In this document: positions 48,105 to 53,706 of the stretch, piece by piece
Position numbering within the stretch: position 1 is the first letter of the stretch
Layout: each line of letters begins with the position of its first letter
Assembly (NCBI GenBank): GCA_021806615.1
Contig: JAJZRB010000006.1
Coordinates: 1-57,196 of the forward strand
Length of the DNA stretch: 57,196 nucleotides
Origin: a bacterium
GTDB taxonomy: Bacteria; Patescibacteriota; Patescibacteriia; Patescibacteriales; UBA12465
Direction of reading: 5' to 3'
Program-made: the position numbers and the translations under genes
Notes under the pieces: generated by a model
Databases searched by the model: none
What the model was told of the DNA's origin: nothing
Seen by the model: only the letters and a program-made list of their open reading frames with translations

Positions 48105-49994
48105 CTAAAAGCTATTGTTAGTAATTATGACCTCTTCTCCTTCTTGTAAATCCTTTTCTTCATAATGATGATCCGGCCGCTCCGTTTTGAGAGATGAGGA
48201 GGCGGGACGGCTCTTTATTTCTCTACCGCGAAAATCGCGCGGAGCAAGGTTAGGAATATCGTTCAAAGAAAGGCTCGGAGAAGAAGCGGCAGCCGGCTCC
48301 TGAGAATCAAGGGCGAATTTTTCCTTTTCCTGCTCTTTGGCTTCGCGGCGCGCTTCAACTTCTAGCCGTTTTTCCTCTTTTTTTTTACTTAGACATTCCC
48401 GGCAATAGACCGGACGGATGCCATCCGGCTTAAAAACGGTGGCCGTTTCTTTCCCGCAATTACTGCAAATAGCCGGATAACCGCTCTTGGAGTCTGTCTT
48501 AACGGGTTGCGAAAAAACGGCTGGCGTCGTCCGTTTGATTTGAGGAGCAGTGGAAACTGGAGGAGACGATTTCTGGCTAGCCGCGCCGACATTTTTAGGC
48601 GGCGAGGAAACGGCGGAAGCTTTTAAAATATTAGCCTTAGCTGAAGAAAAATCGCCATGCGGCACCCGATCATTCAAGATTATATTTTTCTTGCCCGCGG
48701 CCCCCTCCGGTTCACCGCCGTCATTATCGTGCCAGCTCATAATCTTTTCCTCCACCGAAGCGCGATCAGAGGCATACTTTTGACGAGAATATTCAATGAC
48801 TTTCTGAGTATTGCCGGTCTGCTCATCGTCGCGCAGAGGCGGCAAGCCGGCGGCCGAAAACGGAGAGGAGGCGATGCCGTCGATCATCAGCTTCAGATAC
48901 ATTTCATATTTCGGTAAATTGACCAGATCTTCCTCCGTAAAAGTCGGCGTAAACTCTTTGACTAGCTCTTCGGCGTCGGCCGCTCCGACACGGAAGACCA
49001 CCATAGTGCCGACATTGCCAAAAACGGCTGGTTTCACTTTCTCGCTCAACTGCTCGATATATTGATGGGCTAAGATCAGATTCAAACGATACTTACGCGC
49101 CTCTGATAAGATATTGGCGAAACTATCGGTAGAAAAATTCTGGAACTCATCAATATATAGATAGAAATCCCGGCGTTCGCGTTCCGGCACGTCTACGCGG
49201 CTCATGGCGGCTAATTGTATCTTAGTGATCATCATGGCTCCTAAAAGAGCGGAATTATCCTCGCCGATGCGCCCCTTGGACAGATTCATGATAAGAATCT
49301 TGCCATTATCCATGATATCGCGGATATCAATAGATGATTTGACTTGGCCGATGATGTTTCTCATCAAGGAATTAGACAGGAATTGGCCGACTTTATTCTG
49401 AATAGGAGATACGGCTTCAGCCGCGAACTTGTCAGCATAGCCAGAAAATTCTTTTTCCCAAAAAGCCTTAACGACCGGATCTTTGATATTAGAAACCACC
49501 CGCTTCCGATAATTCTTATCGGAAAGCATGCGGACAACGCCCAAGAGAGTTGATCCTGGAAAATCTAAGATAGCGAGGATGGCGTTACGCAGAATATACT
49601 CTAAGCGCGGCCCCCAAGAATCGGCCCATAGTTTTTGAAAAACCCCGATAAGTCCGGAAGCGACCAGATGCCGCAAGTGCGATTCAACCTGTTCTACGAC
49701 ATTGAAGGCTATAGGATAATTAATATCTGCCGGATTAAAATAGACGACGTCCTTAACCCGATTATCGGGGATATATTCGATGATTTTTTCGGCCAGATCG
49801 CCATGCGGATCCACGACAGCCACGCCGTGGCCGGCGCGGATATCATCCACTATCATATTCTCCAGAATAGTCGATTTACCCATGCCGGTTTTTCCAACCA
49901 AATACATATGGCGGCGACGGTCGTCGGTCTTGATGCCGAATCTTTTAGATTCGTTGCGATAGGTTGTCTGGGCAAAGACTGCGATATCCTTCAT
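48105..49994 (-). CDS. TraD/TraG/VirD4-like (type IV coupling protein-like) P-loop ATPase with a C-terminal zinc ribbon
   Basis: Walker A GKTGMGKST. The Walker B/coupling-protein C-domain pattern is FYLYIDEFQNF...ARKYRLNLILAHQYIEQL. No N-terminal TM helices are present. A long disordered linker precedes CSNCGKETATVFKPDGIRPVYCRECL (CxxC-x17-CxxC). Confidence 0.75.
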   Translation of the reverse strand: MKDIAVFAQTTYRNESKRFGIKTDDRRRHMYLVGKTGMGKSTILENMIVDDIRAGHGVAVVDPHGDLAEKIIEYIPDNRVKDVVYFNPADINYPIAFNVVEQVESHLRHLVASGLIGVFQKLWADSWGPRLEYILRNAILAILDFPGSTLLGVVRMLSDKNYRKRVVSNIKDPVVKAFWEKEFSGYADKFAAEAVSPIQNKVGQFLSNSLMRNIIGQVKSSIDIRDIMDNGKILIMNLSKGRIGEDNSALLGAMMITKIQLAAMSRVDVPERERRDFYLYIDEFQNFSTDSFANILSEARKYRLNLILAHQYIEQLSEKVKPAVFGNVGTMVVFRVGAADAEELVKEFTPTFTEEDLVNLPKYEMYLKLMIDGIASSPFSAAGLPPLRDDEQTGNTQKVIEYSRQKYASDRASVEEKIMSWHDNDGGEPEGAAGKKNIILNDRVPHGDFSSAKANILKASAVSSPPKNVGAASQKSSPPVSTAPQIKRTTPAVFSQPVKTDSKSGYPAICSNCGKETATVFKPDGIRPVYCRECLSKKKEEKRLEVEARREAKEQEKEKFALDSQEPAAASSPSLSLNDIPNLAPRDFRGREIKSRPASSSLKTERPDHHYEEKDLQEGEEVIITNNSF

Positions 49995-50011: not shown

Positions 50012-50737
50012 TTAACCGCGGACTTCACATAAACCAACATATTTTCGCCCGATGGCCGCAAAATCCTCCATATCTTTATTGTTATACGCAGCGCGAGACT
50101 GATAGCTGGCATTGACTAGGCCGGTATCTGATTTAAAGTTCTGTAAATACCACTTGCTAGCTCCTTTGATTATTTCTCCCATGCTAGCAAAATCTTTCCT
50201 GTCCAATAGTCCGGGAACAACCGTGGTCCTGAATTCATAAGGCAGGCCGCTAGTCATTATGATTTTAACACTTTTTTGCAAACTTTTACAGTTGACCGGA
50301 GCGCCGACCACCTCTTTATACTTATCTAGAGGCGCCTTTAAATCCATGGCGATATAATCGATTAATTTTTCTTTTATCAGCTGAGACAACATCTCAGGAT
50401 TAGTCCCATTAGTATCCAGTTTGACTAAATAACCTATTTTTTTTATTTTTTTGATAAAAGAAGGCAGGTCGGGGTGCAAAGTAGGCTCCCCGCCTGTAAT
50501 GACTACTCCTTCTAGTCGGCCGAATCTCTCTGATAAAAAAAGAAAAAGGTTTTTAGTGGAAAGCTGGGAAAAACCTTTTTCTTTTTTATTTTTTACGTCC
50601 TTCCCGACTTGGGGCAGGACAAGCATAGGGTTATAGCAGAAGTGGCAACGGAAATTACAACCTTGGGTGAAAATGATGGCCGCTAGATGATCGGGGTAGT
50701 CCAAAAGAGTCAATTTCTCTAAACCACCGATAATCAT
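50012..50737 (-). CDS. nrdG: Anaerobic ribonucleoside-triphosphate reductase activating protein (radical SAM)
   Basis: CNFRCHFCYN cluster motif, GVVITGGEP, and its position next to nrdD. Confidence 0.9.
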   Translation of the reverse strand: MIIGGLEKLTLLDYPDHLAAIIFTQGCNFRCHFCYNPMLVLPQVGKDVKNKKEKGFSQLSTKNLFLFLSERFGRLEGVVITGGEPTLHPDLPSFIKKIKKIGYLVKLDTNGTNPEMLSQLIKEKLIDYIAMDLKAPLDKYKEVVGAPVNCKSLQKSVKIIMTSGLPYEFRTTVVPGLLDRKDFASMGEIIKGASKWYLQNFKSDTGLVNASYQSRAAYNNKDMEDFAAIGRKYVGLCEVRG

Positions 50738-50748
50738 AGCCTTAAAAT

Positions 50749-50886
50749 TTACTCGCCGACCTTAAAAGTCTTGCGGTCTTTATACTCTGAGGCCTTGCCG
50801 GGATTGTAGTTCCTGACTGGCGTTAACCAGCCGACGACACGGCTGTAAACGATACATTCCTGTCTTTGCGTTTGTATGGGGCTCAT
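50749..50886 (-). CDS. Stand-alone 45-aa glycyl-radical segment of class III RNR (NrdD C-terminal motif as a separate ORF)
   Basis: Below the track cutoff. ATG at 50886 to TAA at 50749 encodes MSPIQTQRQECIVYSRVVGWLTPVRNYNPGKASEYKDRKTFKVGE. This matches the NrdD C-terminal pattern (V/I)YSR(V/I)xGY..PV..(W)N.GK..E..(D/E)RK. Confidence 0.65.
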   Translation of the reverse strand: MSPIQTQRQECIVYSRVVGWLTPVRNYNPGKASEYKDRKTFKVGE

Positions 50887-50965
50887 ATATATCTCTACGA
50901 TCCAAGTAACATACCGCGATATGTTGCCTGCAACGTGATTTAATTATAGATGATATTTATTTAAA

Positions 50966-53047
50966 TTACAAATTAGCGGCTTGGTTCTGGGCGGAGACTG
51001 TCTCGGAGATATTTTCCTGATAACCCAGTTCTTCGTCGCACTTCGGACAATATTTATGTTCGCCGGAAAGGTAGCCGTGCTTAGGACAGATAGAGAATGT
51101 CGGCGTGATGGTAAAATAGGGCAAGCGGTAATTCTCTACAATCTTCTTGACCAACTTCTTGGCGGTCTCGCCGTTAGGCAGCCTTTCACCTAAGTAGCCG
51201 TGTAAAACTGTGCCGCCCGTATACTTGATTTGCAGATCATCTTGTAAATCAAGCGCCGAAAAAATATCGTCCGAGAAACTGACATGTAAGTGAGAGGAAT
51301 TGGTGTAATAAGGGTCGGCCCCCTGTCTTTTAACGGATTCCGTATTAGCGCAGATAATACCGGGGTAAAGCTGCTGATCTTTCTTGGCGAAACGATAGGT
51401 CGTTCCTTCGGCCGGAGTCGCTTCTAAATTATAGAGGTTATTAGTCTCATTCTGGAAATCCATCAACTTTTCCCTCATGAAATCCAGGATTTCTCCGGCA
51501 AAAGCATGCCCCTCTGACGTAGAGATGTCTTTCCCCATCAAATTTAAGACAGCTTCATTCATGCCGTTGATGCCGATAGTTGAAAAATGGTTTTTCCAAT
51601 AAGATCCGAAGCGCTCTCTGATATTATCCAAATAAAACATGGAGTAAGGGTATAGGCGGTCATCAGTAAACTTCTCAATTATCTTACGCTTGATTTCTAA
51701 GCTTTCCTTAGCTAACTCCATCAATTTATTGACCCGCTCCTTGAATTCTTCCTTACTCTTGGATAAATATCCGATACGAGCTAAGTTGATAGTCACAACT
51801 CCCAAAGATCCGGTTAGAGGATTAGCTCCGAACAGGCCGCCACCACGTTTGCGCAACTCCCGATTATCTAATCGCAAGCGGCAGCACATGGAACGCGCGT
51901 CATCGCGCTTCATATCTGAATTCACAAAATTGGAAAAATAAGGAATACCATATTTAGCTGTCATTTCCCAGACCGGCTTCAAACATTCGCGGTTCCAATC
52001 AAAATCTTTATCAACATTATAAGTCGGTATCGGGAAACCGAAGACCCGGCCGGTAGAATCTCCGGCTAACATCACTTCGGCAAAAGCGGAATTGAACATG
52101 TCCATCTCAGCCTGGAAATCCTTATACTTCTCCGGCATGATTTCCCCGCCGATAATAGCATTCTCTTCGCCGATCATCGGGGACGGGGTAACGTCCAGCG
52201 TCACATTGGTAAATGGGGTTTGGAAGCCGACGCGAGTCGGTACATTTATATTAAACATGAATTCTTGCAAACCCTGTTTTACTTCCTTATAGGAAAGGTT
52301 ATCGTAACGGATAAAAGGAGCCAAATAGGTATCGAAATTAGCGAAAGCTTGCGCTCCGGCAGCTTCGCCCTGCATAGTATAGAAAAAATTTATGATCTGC
52401 CCCAAAGCGCTGCGGAAGTGCTTAGGCGGATTGCTTTGCACTTTCTCATTGACTCCTTTGAATCCTCGTATCAGAAGATCCTTCAGATCCCAGCCGCAAC
52501 AATAAGGGGCTAGCAAGCCTAAATCATGGATATGGAAATCGCCGTTAACGTGGGCCTGCCGGATATTTTCCGGATATAGTTTATTAAGCCAATAGCGAGC
52601 GGAAATGGAAGAGGCGATATAATTATTCAAACCCTGGACAGAAAAACTCATATTGCTATTCTCTTTCAAACGCCAATCTGCCTTGCCTAAATAATCCTCC
52701 ATCAATTTATTATCAGCAGTCGCGGTATTTATATCGCGCAATTGCCTATGCTGTTCCCGATAAAGGATATAGGCTTTAGCGATCTGGATAAGTTTATTCT
52801 CAATTAAAATCTCTTCCACGATATCTTGGACTTCTTCTACGGCCGGAATACTAGACTTATGAAATTTCTGATTCAAACGTAAAGAAATCTGACTGCTAAG
52901 CTTATTAGCGAGATGATGATCGTCAATGCCTGTCGCTAATGCGGCCTTATAAATCGCCTTGGTAATTTTATCCTGGTCAAAATCAACGATCTCCCCGGAT
53001 CTTTTTATCAGCTTGCTTATGGTCTCAGACATATTATTTCTTCTCAT
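50966..53047 (-). CDS. nrdD: Anaerobic (class III) ribonucleoside-triphosphate reductase large polypeptide, lacking the glycyl-radical tail
   Basis: N-terminal ATP-cone (LIKRSGEIVDFDQDKITKAI), the NrdD core, and C-terminal zinc-site residues ICPKHGYLSGEHKYCPKCD. An alternative ATG at 53032 (MSETISK) lies 1 nt after the nrdR stop. Confidence 0.92.
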   Translation of the reverse strand: MRRNNMSETISKLIKRSGEIVDFDQDKITKAIYKAALATGIDDHHLANKLSSQISLRLNQKFHKSSIPAVEEVQDIVEEILIENKLIQIAKAYILYREQHRQLRDINTATADNKLMEDYLGKADWRLKENSNMSFSVQGLNNYIASSISARYWLNKLYPENIRQAHVNGDFHIHDLGLLAPYCCGWDLKDLLIRGFKGVNEKVQSNPPKHFRSALGQIINFFYTMQGEAAGAQAFANFDTYLAPFIRYDNLSYKEVKQGLQEFMFNINVPTRVGFQTPFTNVTLDVTPSPMIGEENAIIGGEIMPEKYKDFQAEMDMFNSAFAEVMLAGDSTGRVFGFPIPTYNVDKDFDWNRECLKPVWEMTAKYGIPYFSNFVNSDMKRDDARSMCCRLRLDNRELRKRGGGLFGANPLTGSLGVVTINLARIGYLSKSKEEFKERVNKLMELAKESLEIKRKIIEKFTDDRLYPYSMFYLDNIRERFGSYWKNHFSTIGINGMNEAVLNLMGKDISTSEGHAFAGEILDFMREKLMDFQNETNNLYNLEATPAEGTTYRFAKKDQQLYPGIICANTESVKRQGADPYYTNSSHLHVSFSDDIFSALDLQDDLQIKYTGGTVLHGYLGERLPNGETAKKLVKKIVENYRLPYFTITPTFSICPKHGYLSGEHKYCPKCDEELGYQENISETVSAQNQAANL

Positions 53048-53492
53048 GGATTAATTTATTTAGCTCTTTTCTGAACTCATGGGCATCCTTGAAGGATTCA
53101 TAGACTGAGGCATAGCGGATATAAGCGACCGGATCGACTTTCTTAAGATTTTTCATAACCATTTGTCCGATCTGCCGGGAAGTAATTTCTGTCTTTTTCA
53201 AGCGCTGCAGATCCCTTTCAATCGAATGGATCAATTTTTTAAATCGGTCTTCGGTAATCGGACGCTTCTCGCAAGATTTCTTCAAGCCATTCACCATTTT
53301 CTCCCGGCTGTACGATTCGCGCCGTCCATCGCGCTTAACGATGACTAGATCCAGAAGCTCTATCTCCTCATAGGTGGAAAAACGAAAACCGCACTTCAAA
53401 CATTCGCGACGACGGCGTATTGATAAGCCGTCTGGCGCCACTCGGGAGTCAACGACCTTAGTATCAGGGAAATAGCAAATAGGACATTTCAT
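53034..53492 (-). CDS. nrdR: Transcriptional repressor NrdR
   Basis: Zinc ribbon MKCPICYFPDTKVVDSR...CLKCGFRFSTYE followed by an ATP-cone. Confidence 0.95.
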   Translation of the reverse strand: MKCPICYFPDTKVVDSRVAPDGLSIRRRRECLKCGFRFSTYEEIELLDLVIVKRDGRRESYSREKMVNGLKKSCEKRPITEDRFKKLIHSIERDLQRLKKTEITSRQIGQMVMKNLKKVDPVAYIRYASVYESFKDAHEFRKELNKLIHEKK

Positions 53493-53497
53493 AATAA

Positions 53498-53513
53498 ACC
53501 CTATATTTTGTGT
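53498..53513. promoter_or_regulatory. NrdR box 1
   Basis: ACCCTATATTTTGTGT matches 14 of 16 positions of the published NrdR-box consensus acaCwAtATaTwGtgt. It ends 5 nt from the nrdR ATG. Confidence 0.55.
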
Positions 53514-53529
53514 CTTTTATACCGTCAAA

Positions 53530-53545
53530 CCACTAAATGTTGTAT
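53530..53545. promoter_or_regulatory. NrdR box 2
   Basis: CCACTAAATGTTGTAT matches 12 of 16 positions. Its centre is 32 bp from the box 1 centre, which is the typical tandem spacing. Confidence 0.45.
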
Positions 53546-53622
53546 TACATCTATATTTTAACAAAATTTTATCTACGGGTCAATTCAGCTAATCTTAAAA
53601 AAAATATTAAAAAATTATCAAG

Positions 53623-53651: not shown

Positions 53652-53681
53652 CAAAAATCCGCGCCACTGAATGGGCGCGGA
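53652..53681 (-). terminator. Rho-independent terminator after ftsZ
   Basis: An 8-bp GC stem TCCGCGCC/GGCGCGGA with an 8-nt loop, followed on the minus-strand RNA by UUUUUGU. Confidence 0.75.
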
Positions 53682-53706
53682 CTGCAAAAACTGCCTTTAG
53701 CCTATT

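What the first reader, a model, noticed from the sequence alone, without database searches (positions are those of the whole stretch)
50749..53047. Class III ribonucleotide reductase appears split: the glycyl-radical segment is a separate 45-codon ORF between nrdD and nrdG
The 693-aa NrdD ORF ends just after its zinc-site residues (ICPKHGYLSGEHKYCPKCDEELGYQENISETVSAQNQAANL*). Its C-terminal 60 residues contain no RVxGY-type glycyl-radical motif. After a 79-nt gap, in a different reading frame (79 mod 3 = 1), an unannotated ORF at 50886..50749 encodes MSPIQTQRQECIVYSRVVGWLTPVRNYNPGKASEYKDRKTFKVGE. That is the part normally fused to the NrdD C-terminus: a Cys, the YSR-V-x-G-aromatic radical glycine loop, and N-x-GK..E..DRK. 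The radical-bearing element would therefore be a detachable mini-subunit, conceptually like the GrcA/YfiD spare part for pyruvate formate-lyase. The gap is far too short for a group I or group II intron or an intein, and it contains a small hairpin (AACATA-tcgcgg-TATGTT). The alternative explanation is an indel, pseudogenisation or assembly error.
Basis: partly seen in the sequence, partly recalled or inferred. Interest (0 to 1): 0.72.

Follow-up and report, generated by a model that had tools for sequence, protein, structure and literature searches.

The report
Two-piece anaerobic ribonucleotide reductase, detachable radical peptide
In this ultra-small (Patescibacteria) bacterium and at least 78 related species, the oxygen-sensitive enzyme that makes DNA building blocks is encoded in two pieces, with the 45-residue segment that carries the catalytic radical made as its own mini-protein; phages carry orphan copies of that mini-protein, and reviews up to 2026 say no such part is known outside pyruvate formate-lyase.

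Summary
nrdD (50966..53047, -) stops 23 residues after its zinc site. A 79-nt gap follows, then a 45-codon ORF (50749..50886, -) encoding the glycyl-radical loop, then nrdG. Pfam NRDD positions 1-529 fall on the large ORF and 530-562 on the small one.

It is not an indel, pseudogene or recoding site. All 79 loci with readable downstream sequence have the same layout. Gaps run 11-201 nt at 17% GC, in all three frame offsets (32/23/24). The small ORF always starts at a conserved ATG. It is under strong purifying selection (pN/pS 0.145; 17 residues invariant in 77 sequences while third codon positions vary freely). None of the 120 closest large-subunit homologues carries a radical motif. The nearest fused relatives, also Patescibacteria at about 58% identity, join the two parts by exactly 5 residues in 119 of 119 cases.

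Best reading: gene fission produced an obligate two-subunit class III RNR whose radical subunit acts in trans. It works like GrcA/YfiD but is not homologous to it.

Unexpectedly, phage-like contigs carry orphan copies of the mini-gene with no nrdD or nrdG found nearby (76 of 80 IMG/VR loci). I found no paper describing any of this.

Biochemistry is untested and the structure model is inconclusive for the peptide.

The parts
53034..53492 (-). nrdR (transcriptional repressor of RNR genes), first gene of the cluster. It overlaps the annotated upstream ATG of nrdD.
   Evidence: Pfam Zn_ribbon_NrdR (E 4.5e-20) plus ATP-cone (E 3.6e-20). The order ftsZ-nrdR-nrdD-small ORF-nrdG recurs in L166/L167.
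50966..53047 (-). nrdD large (alpha) subunit: ATP-cone plus the class III RNR barrel, ending after the zinc site and lacking the glycyl-radical loop. The probable true start is Met6 at 53032.
   Evidence: PF13597 positions 1-529 of 562, E 3.9e-185, and NF006126 at 1039 bits. It aligns to P. copri NrdD 8p23 up to residue 704 of 743 and to T. maritima 4coi up to 610 of 651. Met6 is invariant.
51881..51886 (-). Codons for Cys388-Cys389 of the finger loop (SMCCRLR), the expected thiyl-radical site that receives the radical from the glycine.
   Evidence: Read directly from the sequence. C388 and C389 are invariant in alignments with split and fused relatives. The MCCR double-Cys motif class is described in PMC9669993.
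51038..51088 (-). Zinc-site codons C654-x2-H657 ... C667-x2-C670 (ICPKHGYLSGEHKYCPKC), the last conserved element of the large subunit.
   Evidence: C654, H657, C667 and C670 are invariant across split and fused relatives.
50969..51031 (-). 21-codon tail of the large subunit (ELGYQENISETVSAQNQAANL): its first few residues (E-I/L-G-Y/F) are conserved in relatives, while the ~17 residues after them are variable, polar and have no counterpart in fused NrdDs.
   Evidence: Tails differ in sequence and length among relatives after CPKCDEE(I/L)G(Y/F). Fused relatives run CPKC-TI(K/Q)QP-CEVYSR. AF2 pLDDT is below 50 for residues 677-699.
50887..50965 (-). 79-nt non-coding spacer between the two ORFs.
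   Evidence: Across 79 loci the spacers are 11-201 nt at 17% GC against about 40% in the flanking coding DNA, in all three phases. There is no Rfam match at gathering score. The fold is not significant.
50943..50971 (-). Promoter-like site TTGTAA-17-TATAAT overlapping the nrdD stop. It could be an internal promoter for the small ORF and nrdG; this is unproven.
   Evidence: 10 of 12 consensus matches. However, -10-like motifs in the spacers of relatives are not clearly above the AT-rich expectation (25 of 79 loci against 23% of shuffles).
50749..50886 (-). 45-codon gene for the glycyl-radical mini-subunit (proposed NrdD beta): MSPIQTQRQECIVYSRVVGWLTPVRNYNPGKASEYKDRKTFKVGE.
   Evidence: PF13597 positions 530-562 of 562. 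108 standalone homologues of 40-65 aa were found. The ATG is conserved in 79 of 79 loci. pN/pS is 0.145. A profile of small proteins aligns Y14-K42 to T. maritima NrdD 616-645, YMRIVGYLVPV....
50830..50832 (-). GGC codon for Gly19, the predicted radical-bearing glycine (YSRVVG*W).
   Evidence: Gly19 is invariant in 77 of 77 in-register cellular homologues while the third codon position varies. It sits at the turn between predicted strands 705-710 and 713-717 of the concatenated model.
50012..50737 (-). nrdG, the radical-SAM activase expected to put the radical on Gly19. It starts 11 nt after the small ORF.
   Evidence: TIGR02495 NrdG2 E 1.9e-62, plus Radical_SAM and Fer4_12. It lies 2-157 nt downstream of the small ORF in relatives.

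Best explanation
[quoted passage not shown] The barrel, the finger-loop cysteines, the ATP-cone and the zinc site are made as a roughly 688-aa alpha subunit. The glycyl-radical loop is made separately as a 45-aa peptide from its own ATG. The activase NrdG is encoded immediately downstream.

Proposed mechanism, step by step:
1. nrdR-nrdD-small ORF-nrdG are co-transcribed. This is inferred.
2. The peptide is translated independently. This is strongly supported.
3. The peptide docks on alpha as the fused C-terminus does, placing its beta-hairpin with Gly19 next to Cys388/389. This is inferred by homology.
4. NrdG abstracts the Gly19 C-alpha hydrogen, either on the free peptide or on the complex. 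This is inferred from the family.
5. The radical passes to the cysteine and catalysis proceeds as in fused NrdD.

A further hypothesis follows from the chemistry. Oxygen destroys glycyl-radical enzymes by cleaving the chain at the radical glycine. In a two-piece enzyme only a 45-residue consumable would be lost and could be replaced. Phages that carry orphan copies could then supply their own radical peptide to the host alpha subunit.
For: Complementary profile coverage: 1-529 on the large ORF and 530-562 on the small ORF.

The layout is fixed in a clade. All 79 loci with readable downstream sequence are split, counting the window; most are species-representative Falkowbacteria or other Patescibacteria MAGs. 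The same synteny appears in L166/L167.

The spacer behaves as non-coding intergenic DNA:
- Length is 11-201 nt, GC is 17%, and phase counts are 0/1/2 = 32/23/24.
- Near-identical relatives differ by 1-2 nt in spacer length, which changes the phase.

The small ORF behaves as a real gene:
- ATG is conserved in 79 of 79 loci.
- pN/pS is 0.145, and codon-position entropy is 0.37/0.28/1.26.
- M1, P3, R8, E10, C11, Y14, S15, R16, V17, G19, W20, P23, N28, G30, K31, E34 and R38 are invariant in 77 sequences while synonymous sites are saturated.

The alpha subunit is intact but lacks the radical part. None of the 120 closest homologues has a radical motif. The finger-loop and zinc residues are invariant.

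The fission point is clear. 119 of 119 of the nearest fused relatives (Parcubacteria and Nealsonbacteria, 56-61% identity) read CPKC-TI(K/Q)QP-CEVYSRIVGY. T. maritima has the same roughly 5-residue join.

Standalone homologues are numerous. 149 of the best 150 cluster representatives among 1.84 billion proteins are 40-127 aa.

Trans action is plausible:
- Orphan copies sit on phage-like contigs with no nrdD or nrdG found nearby.
- GrcA/YfiD and T4 Y06I do the same for PFL (PMC8683613).

No terminator-like site was predicted between nrdR and the end of nrdG.
Against: There is no direct evidence of expression, of complex formation or of a radical on the peptide.

The concatenated AF2 model reproduces a class III RNR fold (pTM 0.70; TM 0.64-0.74 to NrdD structures).

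Shine-Dalgarno-like motifs are absent upstream of the small ORF (7 of 79 loci). The same is true of nrdG (5 of 79), so this looks like a lineage trait.

Seven loci have the two ORFs in the same frame separated by a single stop, where read-through cannot be excluded.

The 'cheap replacement after oxygen damage' rationale and the phage 'supply' role are hypotheses only.

Only the 80 best of 356 matching genome stretches were inspected.
Confidence: 0.85

Rival explanations
1. Sequencing or assembly indel, or recent pseudogenisation, of a normally continuous nrdD.
For: A single window cannot exclude it, and the two ORFs are in different frames.
Against: - The same architecture occurs in 79 of 79 independently assembled loci from many studies.
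- The window's NrdD protein itself is recorded on 6 contigs.
- The peptide is under strong purifying selection.
- The spacer is an AT-rich intergenic stretch of variable length, not a 1-2 nt indel.
Confidence: 0.01
2. Programmed recoding (frameshift, stop read-through, or ribosomal bypassing as in T4 gene 60) joins the two ORFs into one fused NrdD during translation.
For: The gap is short. Seven frame-0 loci have a single in-frame stop between the ORFs. Bypassing of a 50-nt gap is known in T4 gene 60 (10.1101/2022.08.31.505936, listed).
Against: - Gap length runs 11-201 nt and all three phases are about equally frequent.
- Close relatives change phase through 1-2 nt spacer indels.
- 25 of 32 frame-0 loci have 2-9 in-frame stops.
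- The sequence immediately upstream of the nrdD stop is variable, so there is no conserved take-off site.
- The ATG at the head of the small ORF is invariant, which recoding would not require.
- No conserved RNA structure is present.
Confidence: 0.03
3. An intervening sequence is removed after transcription or translation (a small intron, or a split or mini intein), restoring a fused protein.
For: nrdD genes often host group I introns and inteins (PMC3653736). Relatives of this NrdD carry inteins elsewhere in the gene (P0245, P0291, P0336).
Against: - Spacers as short as 11 nt cannot be introns.
- There is no Rfam hit and no conserved fold.
- Spacer GC is 17% and lengths are unconstrained.
- The flanking peptide pieces (about 20 aa and 5 aa) are far too short and too variable for split-intein halves.
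- The inteins in relatives sit at a different site (GGGLFG...TG|S).
Confidence: 0.01
4. The peptide is made but is not the catalytic radical carrier of the neighbouring NrdD. It might be a regulator or decoy for NrdG, with alpha inactive or using another radical source.
For: No biochemical data exist. A few standalone homologues lack the glycine (P0064 VVWW, P0154 VVEY), which hints that not all copies need to carry a radical.
Against: - Gly19 and the whole YSRVVGW loop are invariant in 77 of 77 cellular operon copies.
- Alpha keeps every catalytic feature except the loop and is itself highly conserved.
- No other glycyl-radical segment is present in the window.
- The operon keeps nrdG directly after the peptide.
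- No other RNR gene was seen in this 57-kb window; the rest of the genome was not examined.
Confidence: 0.06

Closest known systems
Canonical single-chain class III ribonucleotide reductase NrdD with NrdG (phage T4, E. coli, T. maritima 4COI/4U3E, P. copri 8P23, S. thermophilus 9D3X)
   Same: The barrel, ATP-cone, finger-loop cysteines (MCCR type), C-terminal zinc site and adjacent NrdG activase are the same. The peptide is homologous to the last roughly 33 profile positions of NrdD.
   Different: The radical-bearing loop is on a separate polypeptide encoded by its own gene. The large chain ends in a tail of about 20 residues, variable beyond its first few, with no counterpart in the fused enzymes.
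GrcA/YfiD of E. coli and Y06I of phage T4: autonomous glycyl-radical 'spare part' proteins for pyruvate formate-lyase
   Same: Each is a small standalone protein carrying a glycyl-radical loop that must act in trans on a large catalytic chain and be activated by the cognate radical-SAM activase. A phage-encoded version exists in both cases (PMC8683613).
   Different: - The family differs: the peptide matches NRDD PF13597 only, not the PFL-type Gly_radical domain.
- It is much shorter (45 aa against about 127 aa).
- In the operon it is the sole radical domain of its partner rather than a back-up for a partner that has its own.
- Reviews state that spare parts are known only for formate-lyases (PMC13450708).
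Split RNR catalytic subunits: NrdJa/NrdJb of Pseudomonas aeruginosa (class II), and genes-in-pieces nrdA of Aeromonas phage Aeh1
   Same: An RNR catalytic chain is encoded as two adjacent genes whose products are thought to reassemble. The P. aeruginosa case is cited in PMC9669993 and phage cases in PMC3653736. That the Aeh1 enzyme is functional is from my own memory.
   Different: Those splits cut the catalytic chain into two large pieces, and in Aeh1 the split is caused by an inserted homing-endonuclease gene. Here a 45-aa radical module is severed, with only a short AT-rich spacer and no mobile-element ORF.
Accessory small subunits of other glycyl-radical enzymes (HPAD gamma; BSS beta/gamma; MASS beta/gamma/delta)
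   Same: Each is a small protein that binds a glycyl-radical enzyme catalytic subunit (PMC13450708).
   Different: Those are Fe-S or rubredoxin-like proteins that do not carry the radical glycine, and they are unrelated in sequence to this peptide.

Membership tests
Class III RNR catalytic protein NrdD (Pfam PF13597, TIGR02487, NF006126) | Ten-stranded alpha/beta barrel core homologous to NrdD | tested here: met
   PF13597 E 3.9e-185, NF006126 at 1039 bits against a cut-off of 548. The model matches NrdD structures with TM 0.64-0.74.
Class III RNR catalytic protein NrdD (Pfam PF13597, TIGR02487, NF006126) | Finger-loop cysteine(s) that form the thiyl radical | tested here: met
   SMCCRLR at residues 386-392. 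C388 and C389 are invariant in the alignments.
Class III RNR catalytic protein NrdD (Pfam PF13597, TIGR02487, NF006126) | C-terminal zinc-binding site ahead of the radical loop | tested here: met
   C654-x2-H657 ... C667-x2-C670 is invariant. Metal binding itself was not tested.
Class III RNR catalytic protein NrdD (Pfam PF13597, TIGR02487, NF006126) | Glycyl-radical motif (RxxG[YWF]) on the same polypeptide, at the C-terminus | tested here: not met
   The motif is absent from the large ORF and from 120 of 120 closest homologues. It is present on the separate 45-aa ORF. Alpha and peptide together cover the whole family profile.
Class III RNR catalytic protein NrdD (Pfam PF13597, TIGR02487, NF006126) | Cognate radical-SAM activase NrdG encoded alongside | tested here: met
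   TIGR02495 NrdG2 E 1.9e-62, starting 11 nt downstream of the small ORF.
Class III RNR catalytic protein NrdD (Pfam PF13597, TIGR02487, NF006126) | NTP reduction dependent on a glycyl radical | not testable with these tools
   Requires anaerobic reconstitution and EPR.
GrcA/YfiD autonomous glycyl radical cofactor (InterPro IPR011140; PFL-type Gly_radical domain) | Small standalone protein consisting essentially of a glycyl-radical loop | tested here: met
   A 45-aa ORF with its own conserved ATG and stop, plus 108 standalone homologues.
GrcA/YfiD autonomous glycyl radical cofactor (InterPro IPR011140; PFL-type Gly_radical domain) | Sequence homology to the PFL C-terminal glycyl-radical domain | tested here: not met
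   The only Pfam hit at E <= 0.01 is NRDD PF13597. NCBIfam hits are NrdD models only.
GrcA/YfiD autonomous glycyl radical cofactor (InterPro IPR011140; PFL-type Gly_radical domain) | Acts as a replacement for the oxygen-cleaved radical domain of a partner that has its own domain | tested here: not met
   The operon partner has no radical domain at all. The phage-borne and zinc-ribbon-type orphans might fit this feature, but their partners are unknown.
GrcA/YfiD autonomous glycyl radical cofactor (InterPro IPR011140; PFL-type Gly_radical domain) | Radical installed on the free small protein by the partner's activase | not testable with these tools
   Needs NrdG plus peptide plus SAM in vitro, followed by EPR.
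Programmed translational bypass or frameshift sites (e.g. T4 gene 60) | Conserved gap length and phase, a conserved take-off/landing context, and no need for a start codon on the downstream part | tested here: not met
   Gaps are 11-201 nt in phases 32/23/24. The sequence before the stop is variable. ATG is invariant.
Intron- or intein-interrupted nrdD | Intervening element with a conserved ribozyme fold or with intein splicing blocks | tested here: not met
   There is no Rfam match. The fold z-score is -0.92. Spacers are as short as 11 nt. No ORF or domain lies in the gap.

The most novel reading that the evidence does not exclude
The 45-residue peptide is an exchangeable, consumable 'protein cofactor' for class III RNR. 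NrdG charges it with the radical, it plugs into the alpha barrel, oxygen destroys it, and a fresh copy replaces it. The module has become mobile. Phages of Patescibacteria, and apparently of other hosts including archaea, carry orphan versions, some with their own zinc ribbon, to take over or repair the host's anaerobic dNTP supply. These would be the first spare-part or trans-acting glycyl-radical proteins outside the pyruvate formate-lyase family.
Probability: 0.4. Interest if true: 0.88.

Novelty: new variant of a known kind. Interest (0 to 1): 0.76.

Why it matters
Glycyl-radical enzymes are thought to carry their radical on the same chain as the active site. The only known trans-acting radical modules are GrcA/YfiD and T4 Y06I, both for pyruvate formate-lyase. 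[quoted passage not shown]

This locus makes that open question directly testable in several ways:
- It offers a natural, evolutionarily fixed two-piece class III RNR, plus a large and diverse family of standalone NrdD-type radical peptides. Many of them are phage-borne.
- It gives a minimal 45-aa substrate for studying how activases recognise and charge the radical loop.
- It gives a way to separate radical installation from docking.
- It suggests an economical route to oxygen-damage repair in organisms with tiny genomes.
- It points to a possible new class of phage auxiliary genes that target nucleotide supply.

It also matters for annotation. RNR surveys that require a C-terminal radical motif would score these NrdDs as defective, and the mini-genes are easily missed or mis-named.

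Tried and rejected
**Structure prediction**
- I submitted the two window proteins concatenated, with 42 close large-subunit homologues as the alignment. The alignment was too shallow and the model was useless (mean pLDDT 47).
- MAFFT misplaced the small homologues onto an internal GRVFGFP stretch. It also misplaced the fused C-termini onto the large-subunit tail. Both alignments were discarded.
- A third alignment (A5) of fused relatives only aligned correctly. It gave pLDDT 72 and pTM 0.70, but only about 40-63 over the peptide. Coordinates cannot be read, so barrel insertion could not be measured.

**The hairpin in the gap** is not significant.

**An internal promoter.** A good TTGTAA-17-TATAAT site exists in the window. 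Across relatives, -10-like motifs are not clearly enriched over the AT-rich background, so this is left open.

**Shine-Dalgarno motifs** are rare for both the small ORF and nrdG, so they say nothing either way.

**phmmer of the 45-mer against PDB** found nothing. A profile of small proteins was needed to get the T. maritima match.

**GenBank phage search**
- The 45-mer and a high-GC orphan together gave only three hits.
- PhiF1 turned out to be a fused full-length NrdD.
- ANMV-1 has a true standalone 144-aa protein.

**Cross-check of orphan contigs.** Only 20 IMG/VR contigs matched two NrdD peptide patterns, and only one of them (a fused case) is shared with the small-gene contigs. The scan relies on two peptide patterns, so distant NrdDs would be missed.

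**Literature.** Seven full-text searches and six papers read turned up no description of a split NrdD or an NrdD-type spare part.


Full report
**1. What is in the window**

On the minus strand the order is as follows:
- nrdR, 53034..53492
- a 693-codon nrdD ORF, 50966..53047
- a 79-nt gap, 50887..50965
- a 45-codon ATG ORF, 50749..50886
- after 11 nt, nrdG, 50012..50737

Pfam places the large ORF on NRDD profile positions 1-529 of 562 (E 3.9e-185), plus an N-terminal ATP-cone. It places the 45-mer on positions 530-562 of 562 (E 1.2e-6, above the gathering score). NCBIfam agrees and identifies NrdG as the NrdG2 type. The two ORFs together make exactly one NrdD.

Against solved structures, the large ORF aligns to P. 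copri NrdD up to residue 704 of 743 and to T. maritima NrdD up to 610 of 651. A profile of small-ORF homologues aligns Y14-K42 to T. maritima residues 616-645, YMRIVGYLVPV.... The break therefore falls in the roughly 5 residues between the last zinc cysteine and the strand leading into the radical glycine.

Two small corrections apply. The likely start of nrdD is Met6 at 53032. The hairpin in the gap is not significant, with z = -0.92.

**2. Artefact or real**

A scan of one genome per GTDB species with the large protein found 356 matching stretches. The best 80 (73-90% identity; Falkowbacteria and other Patescibacteria MAGs) were fetched. Every one of the 79 loci (including the window) that has downstream sequence shows the same layout:
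- a stop about 15-20 variable residues after CPKCDEE(I/L)G(Y/F)
- a spacer of 11-201 nt (median 71)
- a small ORF that always begins with ATG and reads MSP... (MAP in three)

The spacer phase is 0, 1 or 2 in 32, 23 and 24 loci. Relatives whose small ORFs are at least 95% identical differ by 1-2 nt in spacer length and hence in phase. Spacer GC is 17%, against about 40% in the flanking genes. This is ordinary intergenic DNA.

The small ORF has pN/pS 0.145 and codon-position entropies of 0.37/0.28/1.26. Seventeen residues, including R16, V17, G19 and W20, are invariant in 77 sequences while third positions are close to saturated.

None of the 120 closest large-subunit homologues in a 5.8-billion-protein collection carries a radical motif. 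The window's own NrdD is recorded on six contigs.

Assembly error, a recent pseudogene, frameshifting, bypassing, read-through and splicing are all poor fits. They predict a constrained phase or gap, a conserved recoding context, or a conserved RNA or intein, and they have no need for a start codon. There is also no Rfam hit. The only residue of doubt is seven frame-0 loci with a single intervening stop.

**3. Where the split came from**

The closest fused relatives are also Patescibacteria (names such as Parcubacteria DG_74_2 and Nealsonbacteria). They are 704-708 aa long and 56-61% identical to the window's alpha subunit. All 119 read ...CP.HGY..GEH..CP(K/Q)C-T(I/V)(K/Q/R)QP-CEVYSR(I/V)VGY..., a linker of exactly five residues.

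The window's peptide residues 6-11 (TQRQEC) correspond to that linker plus the conserved cysteine. The fission therefore happened immediately after the zinc site. Alpha then acquired a tail that is free to drift beyond its first few residues. The peptide acquired five N-terminal residues, M-S-P-I-Q, of which M1 and P3 are invariant and S2 nearly so.

**4. How widespread standalone radical peptides are**

Searching the 45-mer against 5.8 billion proteins returned 108 hits, all 40-65 aa. An exhaustive HMMER search of 1.84 billion cluster representatives gave 902 hits at E <= 1e-3. Of the best 150, 149 are 40-127 aa, and 146 of the 150 start with Met. The one long hit is an intein-containing fused NrdD. 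Eight of the 150 carry their own two CxxC motifs ahead of the CEVYSRVVGY loop, which amounts to a complete zinc-ribbon-plus-radical domain.

**5. An unexpected turn: phage copies**

P0106 (62% identical to the window peptide) lies on contigs made of many small ORFs plus a terminase. No nrdD or nrdG was found in the sequence fetched around it.

A scan of IMG/VR found 223 stretches encoding a relative. Of the best 80 loci:
- 76 have a small ORF and no NrdD or NrdG homologue in the up to 6 kb of flank fetched on each side
- three are fused NrdDs
- one is a split pair

Loci with peptides 73-80% identical to the window's sit beside tail-fibre genes. Other copies sit beside an SU10-type capsid gene or a primase-helicase on a VirSorter contig. 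The published archaeal virus ANMV-1 encodes a 144-aa zinc-ribbon-plus-radical-loop protein, annotated simply as 'anaerobic ribonucleoside triphosphate reductase'.

A pattern scan for NrdD on viral contigs found 20 loci. Only one (a fused case) lies on a contig that also appears in the small-gene list. That scan uses two peptide patterns, so distant or far-away nrdD genes are not excluded.

These orphans make sense only if the peptide can act in trans on a large subunit made elsewhere. This is independent support for the 'detachable subunit' idea.

**6. Mechanism**

*Shown:* two genes, both under selection, that together equal one NrdD, with the activase adjacent, in a conserved ftsZ-nrdR-nrdD-peptide-nrdG block. 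No terminator-like site was predicted inside it.

*Inferred from family knowledge:*
- The peptide forms the beta-hairpin with Gly19 at its tip. The concatenated AF2 model does predict strands 705-710 and 713-717 flanking G712, but at low confidence.
- The peptide inserts next to Cys388/389.
- NrdG generates the radical.

*Hypothesised:* because oxygen cleaves glycyl-radical enzymes at the radical glycine, a split enzyme loses only a 45-aa part. Phages exploit the modularity.

An internal promoter-like site in the window's spacer could allow the peptide and NrdG to be made in excess. Comparative support for this is weak.

**7. Relation to what is known**

The peptide works like GrcA/YfiD and T4 Y06I, which are charged by PFL activase and reconstitute oxygen-cleaved PFL (PMC8683613). 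It is not a member of that family: it is homologous to NrdD only, and in the operon it is the sole radical domain rather than a spare.

It also resembles the split RNR subunits NrdJa/b and the phage 'genes in pieces'. Those cut the catalytic chain into large parts or are caused by mobile elements.

The 2021 and 2026 sources state that spare parts are validated only for PFL and that their existence for other glycyl-radical enzymes is undetermined. Seven literature searches found no report of a split NrdD. The library lacks most subscription-journal papers, so an earlier mention cannot be ruled out. Databases already hold the small ORFs under automatic names.

**8. Verdict**

I rate it a new variant of a known kind: a naturally two-subunit class III RNR with a trans-acting radical peptide, plus a large and partly viral family of such peptides. 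Interest is 0.76. The chief gaps are biochemical proof and a confident structural model of the complex.

Noticed in passing
L081-L083, L084-L096, L100-L109 and others (IMG/VR, JGI, Logan contigs); e.g. L087:6001-6135, L092:6001-6114, L095:1013-1141: Orphan genes for NrdD-type glycyl-radical mini-proteins (40-75 aa) sit on phage-like contigs carrying terminase, tail-fibre or SU10 capsid genes. No nrdD or nrdG was found in the up to 6 kb fetched on each side. This applies to 76 of the 80 best IMG/VR loci, and 223 matching stretches were found in all. Some are 73-80% identical to the window's peptide. They may be a new kind of phage auxiliary gene.
   Followed up: partly
L164:3686-4120 (ANMV-1 virus KP703175, AJP62049); L110, L112, L116, L123, L127, L129, L145, L148, L157; P0120, P0141, P0165, P0173, P0187, P0209, P0210, P0236: A second standalone type of 88-145 aa carries its own two CxxC motifs (zinc ribbon) ahead of the CEVYSRVVGY radical loop. 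That is the complete C-terminal domain of NrdD as a free protein. It is the closest formal analogue of GrcA for class III RNR. Partners and hosts are unknown.
   Followed up: partly
L097:1425-1500 (also L098, L099); P0064, P0154, P0112: Some standalone copies lack a normal radical glycine. Three viral contigs from different samples have a 6-nt insertion, TAA GTA, with an in-frame stop directly before the Gly codon (YSRVV*VGW). P0064 reads VVWW, P0154 reads VVEY, and P0112 has an extra WL. These could be errors, decaying copies or possible decoys.
   Followed up: no
P0245 residues 411-813; also P0291, P0336, P0365, P0430, P0442, P0455, P0471, P0474: Several close NrdD relatives, both split and fused, are about 880-1113 aa. 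Where checked this is due to an inserted intein: P0245 carries one, with a LAGLIDADG-type endonuclease Pfam hit, between ...GSLTG and SIGVVTINL, and P0291, P0430, P0471 and P0474 have intein Pfam hits. P0336, P0365, P0442 and P0455 were judged on length alone. The P0245 site is far from the fission point.
   Followed up: partly
window 53496-53560 (- strand), upstream of nrdR: The motif AAAATATAG occurs twice, 50 nt apart (about 53551-53559 and 53501-53509). It lies between a strong promoter-like site (TTGACC-17-TAAAAT with an extended TG, 53583..53555) and the nrdR start. The ftsZ terminator lies just upstream (53683..53656). These may be NrdR boxes.
   Followed up: no
L001, L002, L005, L006, L008, L010 and many others (record titles): Many MAG records carrying this Patescibacteria-type operon (NrdD 85-90% identical to Falkowbacteria) are titled 'uncultured Gammaproteobacteria bacterium'. 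One is titled Bacillota (L050), one Planctomycetota (L063) and one Saccharimonadales (L023). These look like wrong taxonomic labels in bulk MAG submissions.
   Followed up: no
79 loci, 18 nt upstream of the small ORF and of nrdG: Shine-Dalgarno-like 4-mers are rare upstream of both genes (7 of 79 and 5 of 79). This lineage seems to initiate translation largely without SD pairing, in very AT-rich leaders.
   Followed up: partly
window 48105-49994 (- strand): Seventeen nucleotides downstream of nrdG lies a 629-aa ORF with a Walker-type GKTGMGKS motif and a C-terminal CxxC...CxxC. By eye it resembles a TraG/VirD4-like type IV coupling or DNA-translocation ATPase. It was not analysed with any tool.
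   Followed up: no
L162:38-2010; L171: One IMG/VR contig (L162) has a split pair of a different sequence type: a large ORF 62% identical, followed by a small ORF of up to 75 codons reading ...CEVWSRVTGYLRPV.... This could be a second, independent fission or a divergent branch. L171 is a 'viral' contig with an NrdD 74% identical to the window's; its downstream region was not examined.
   Followed up: no
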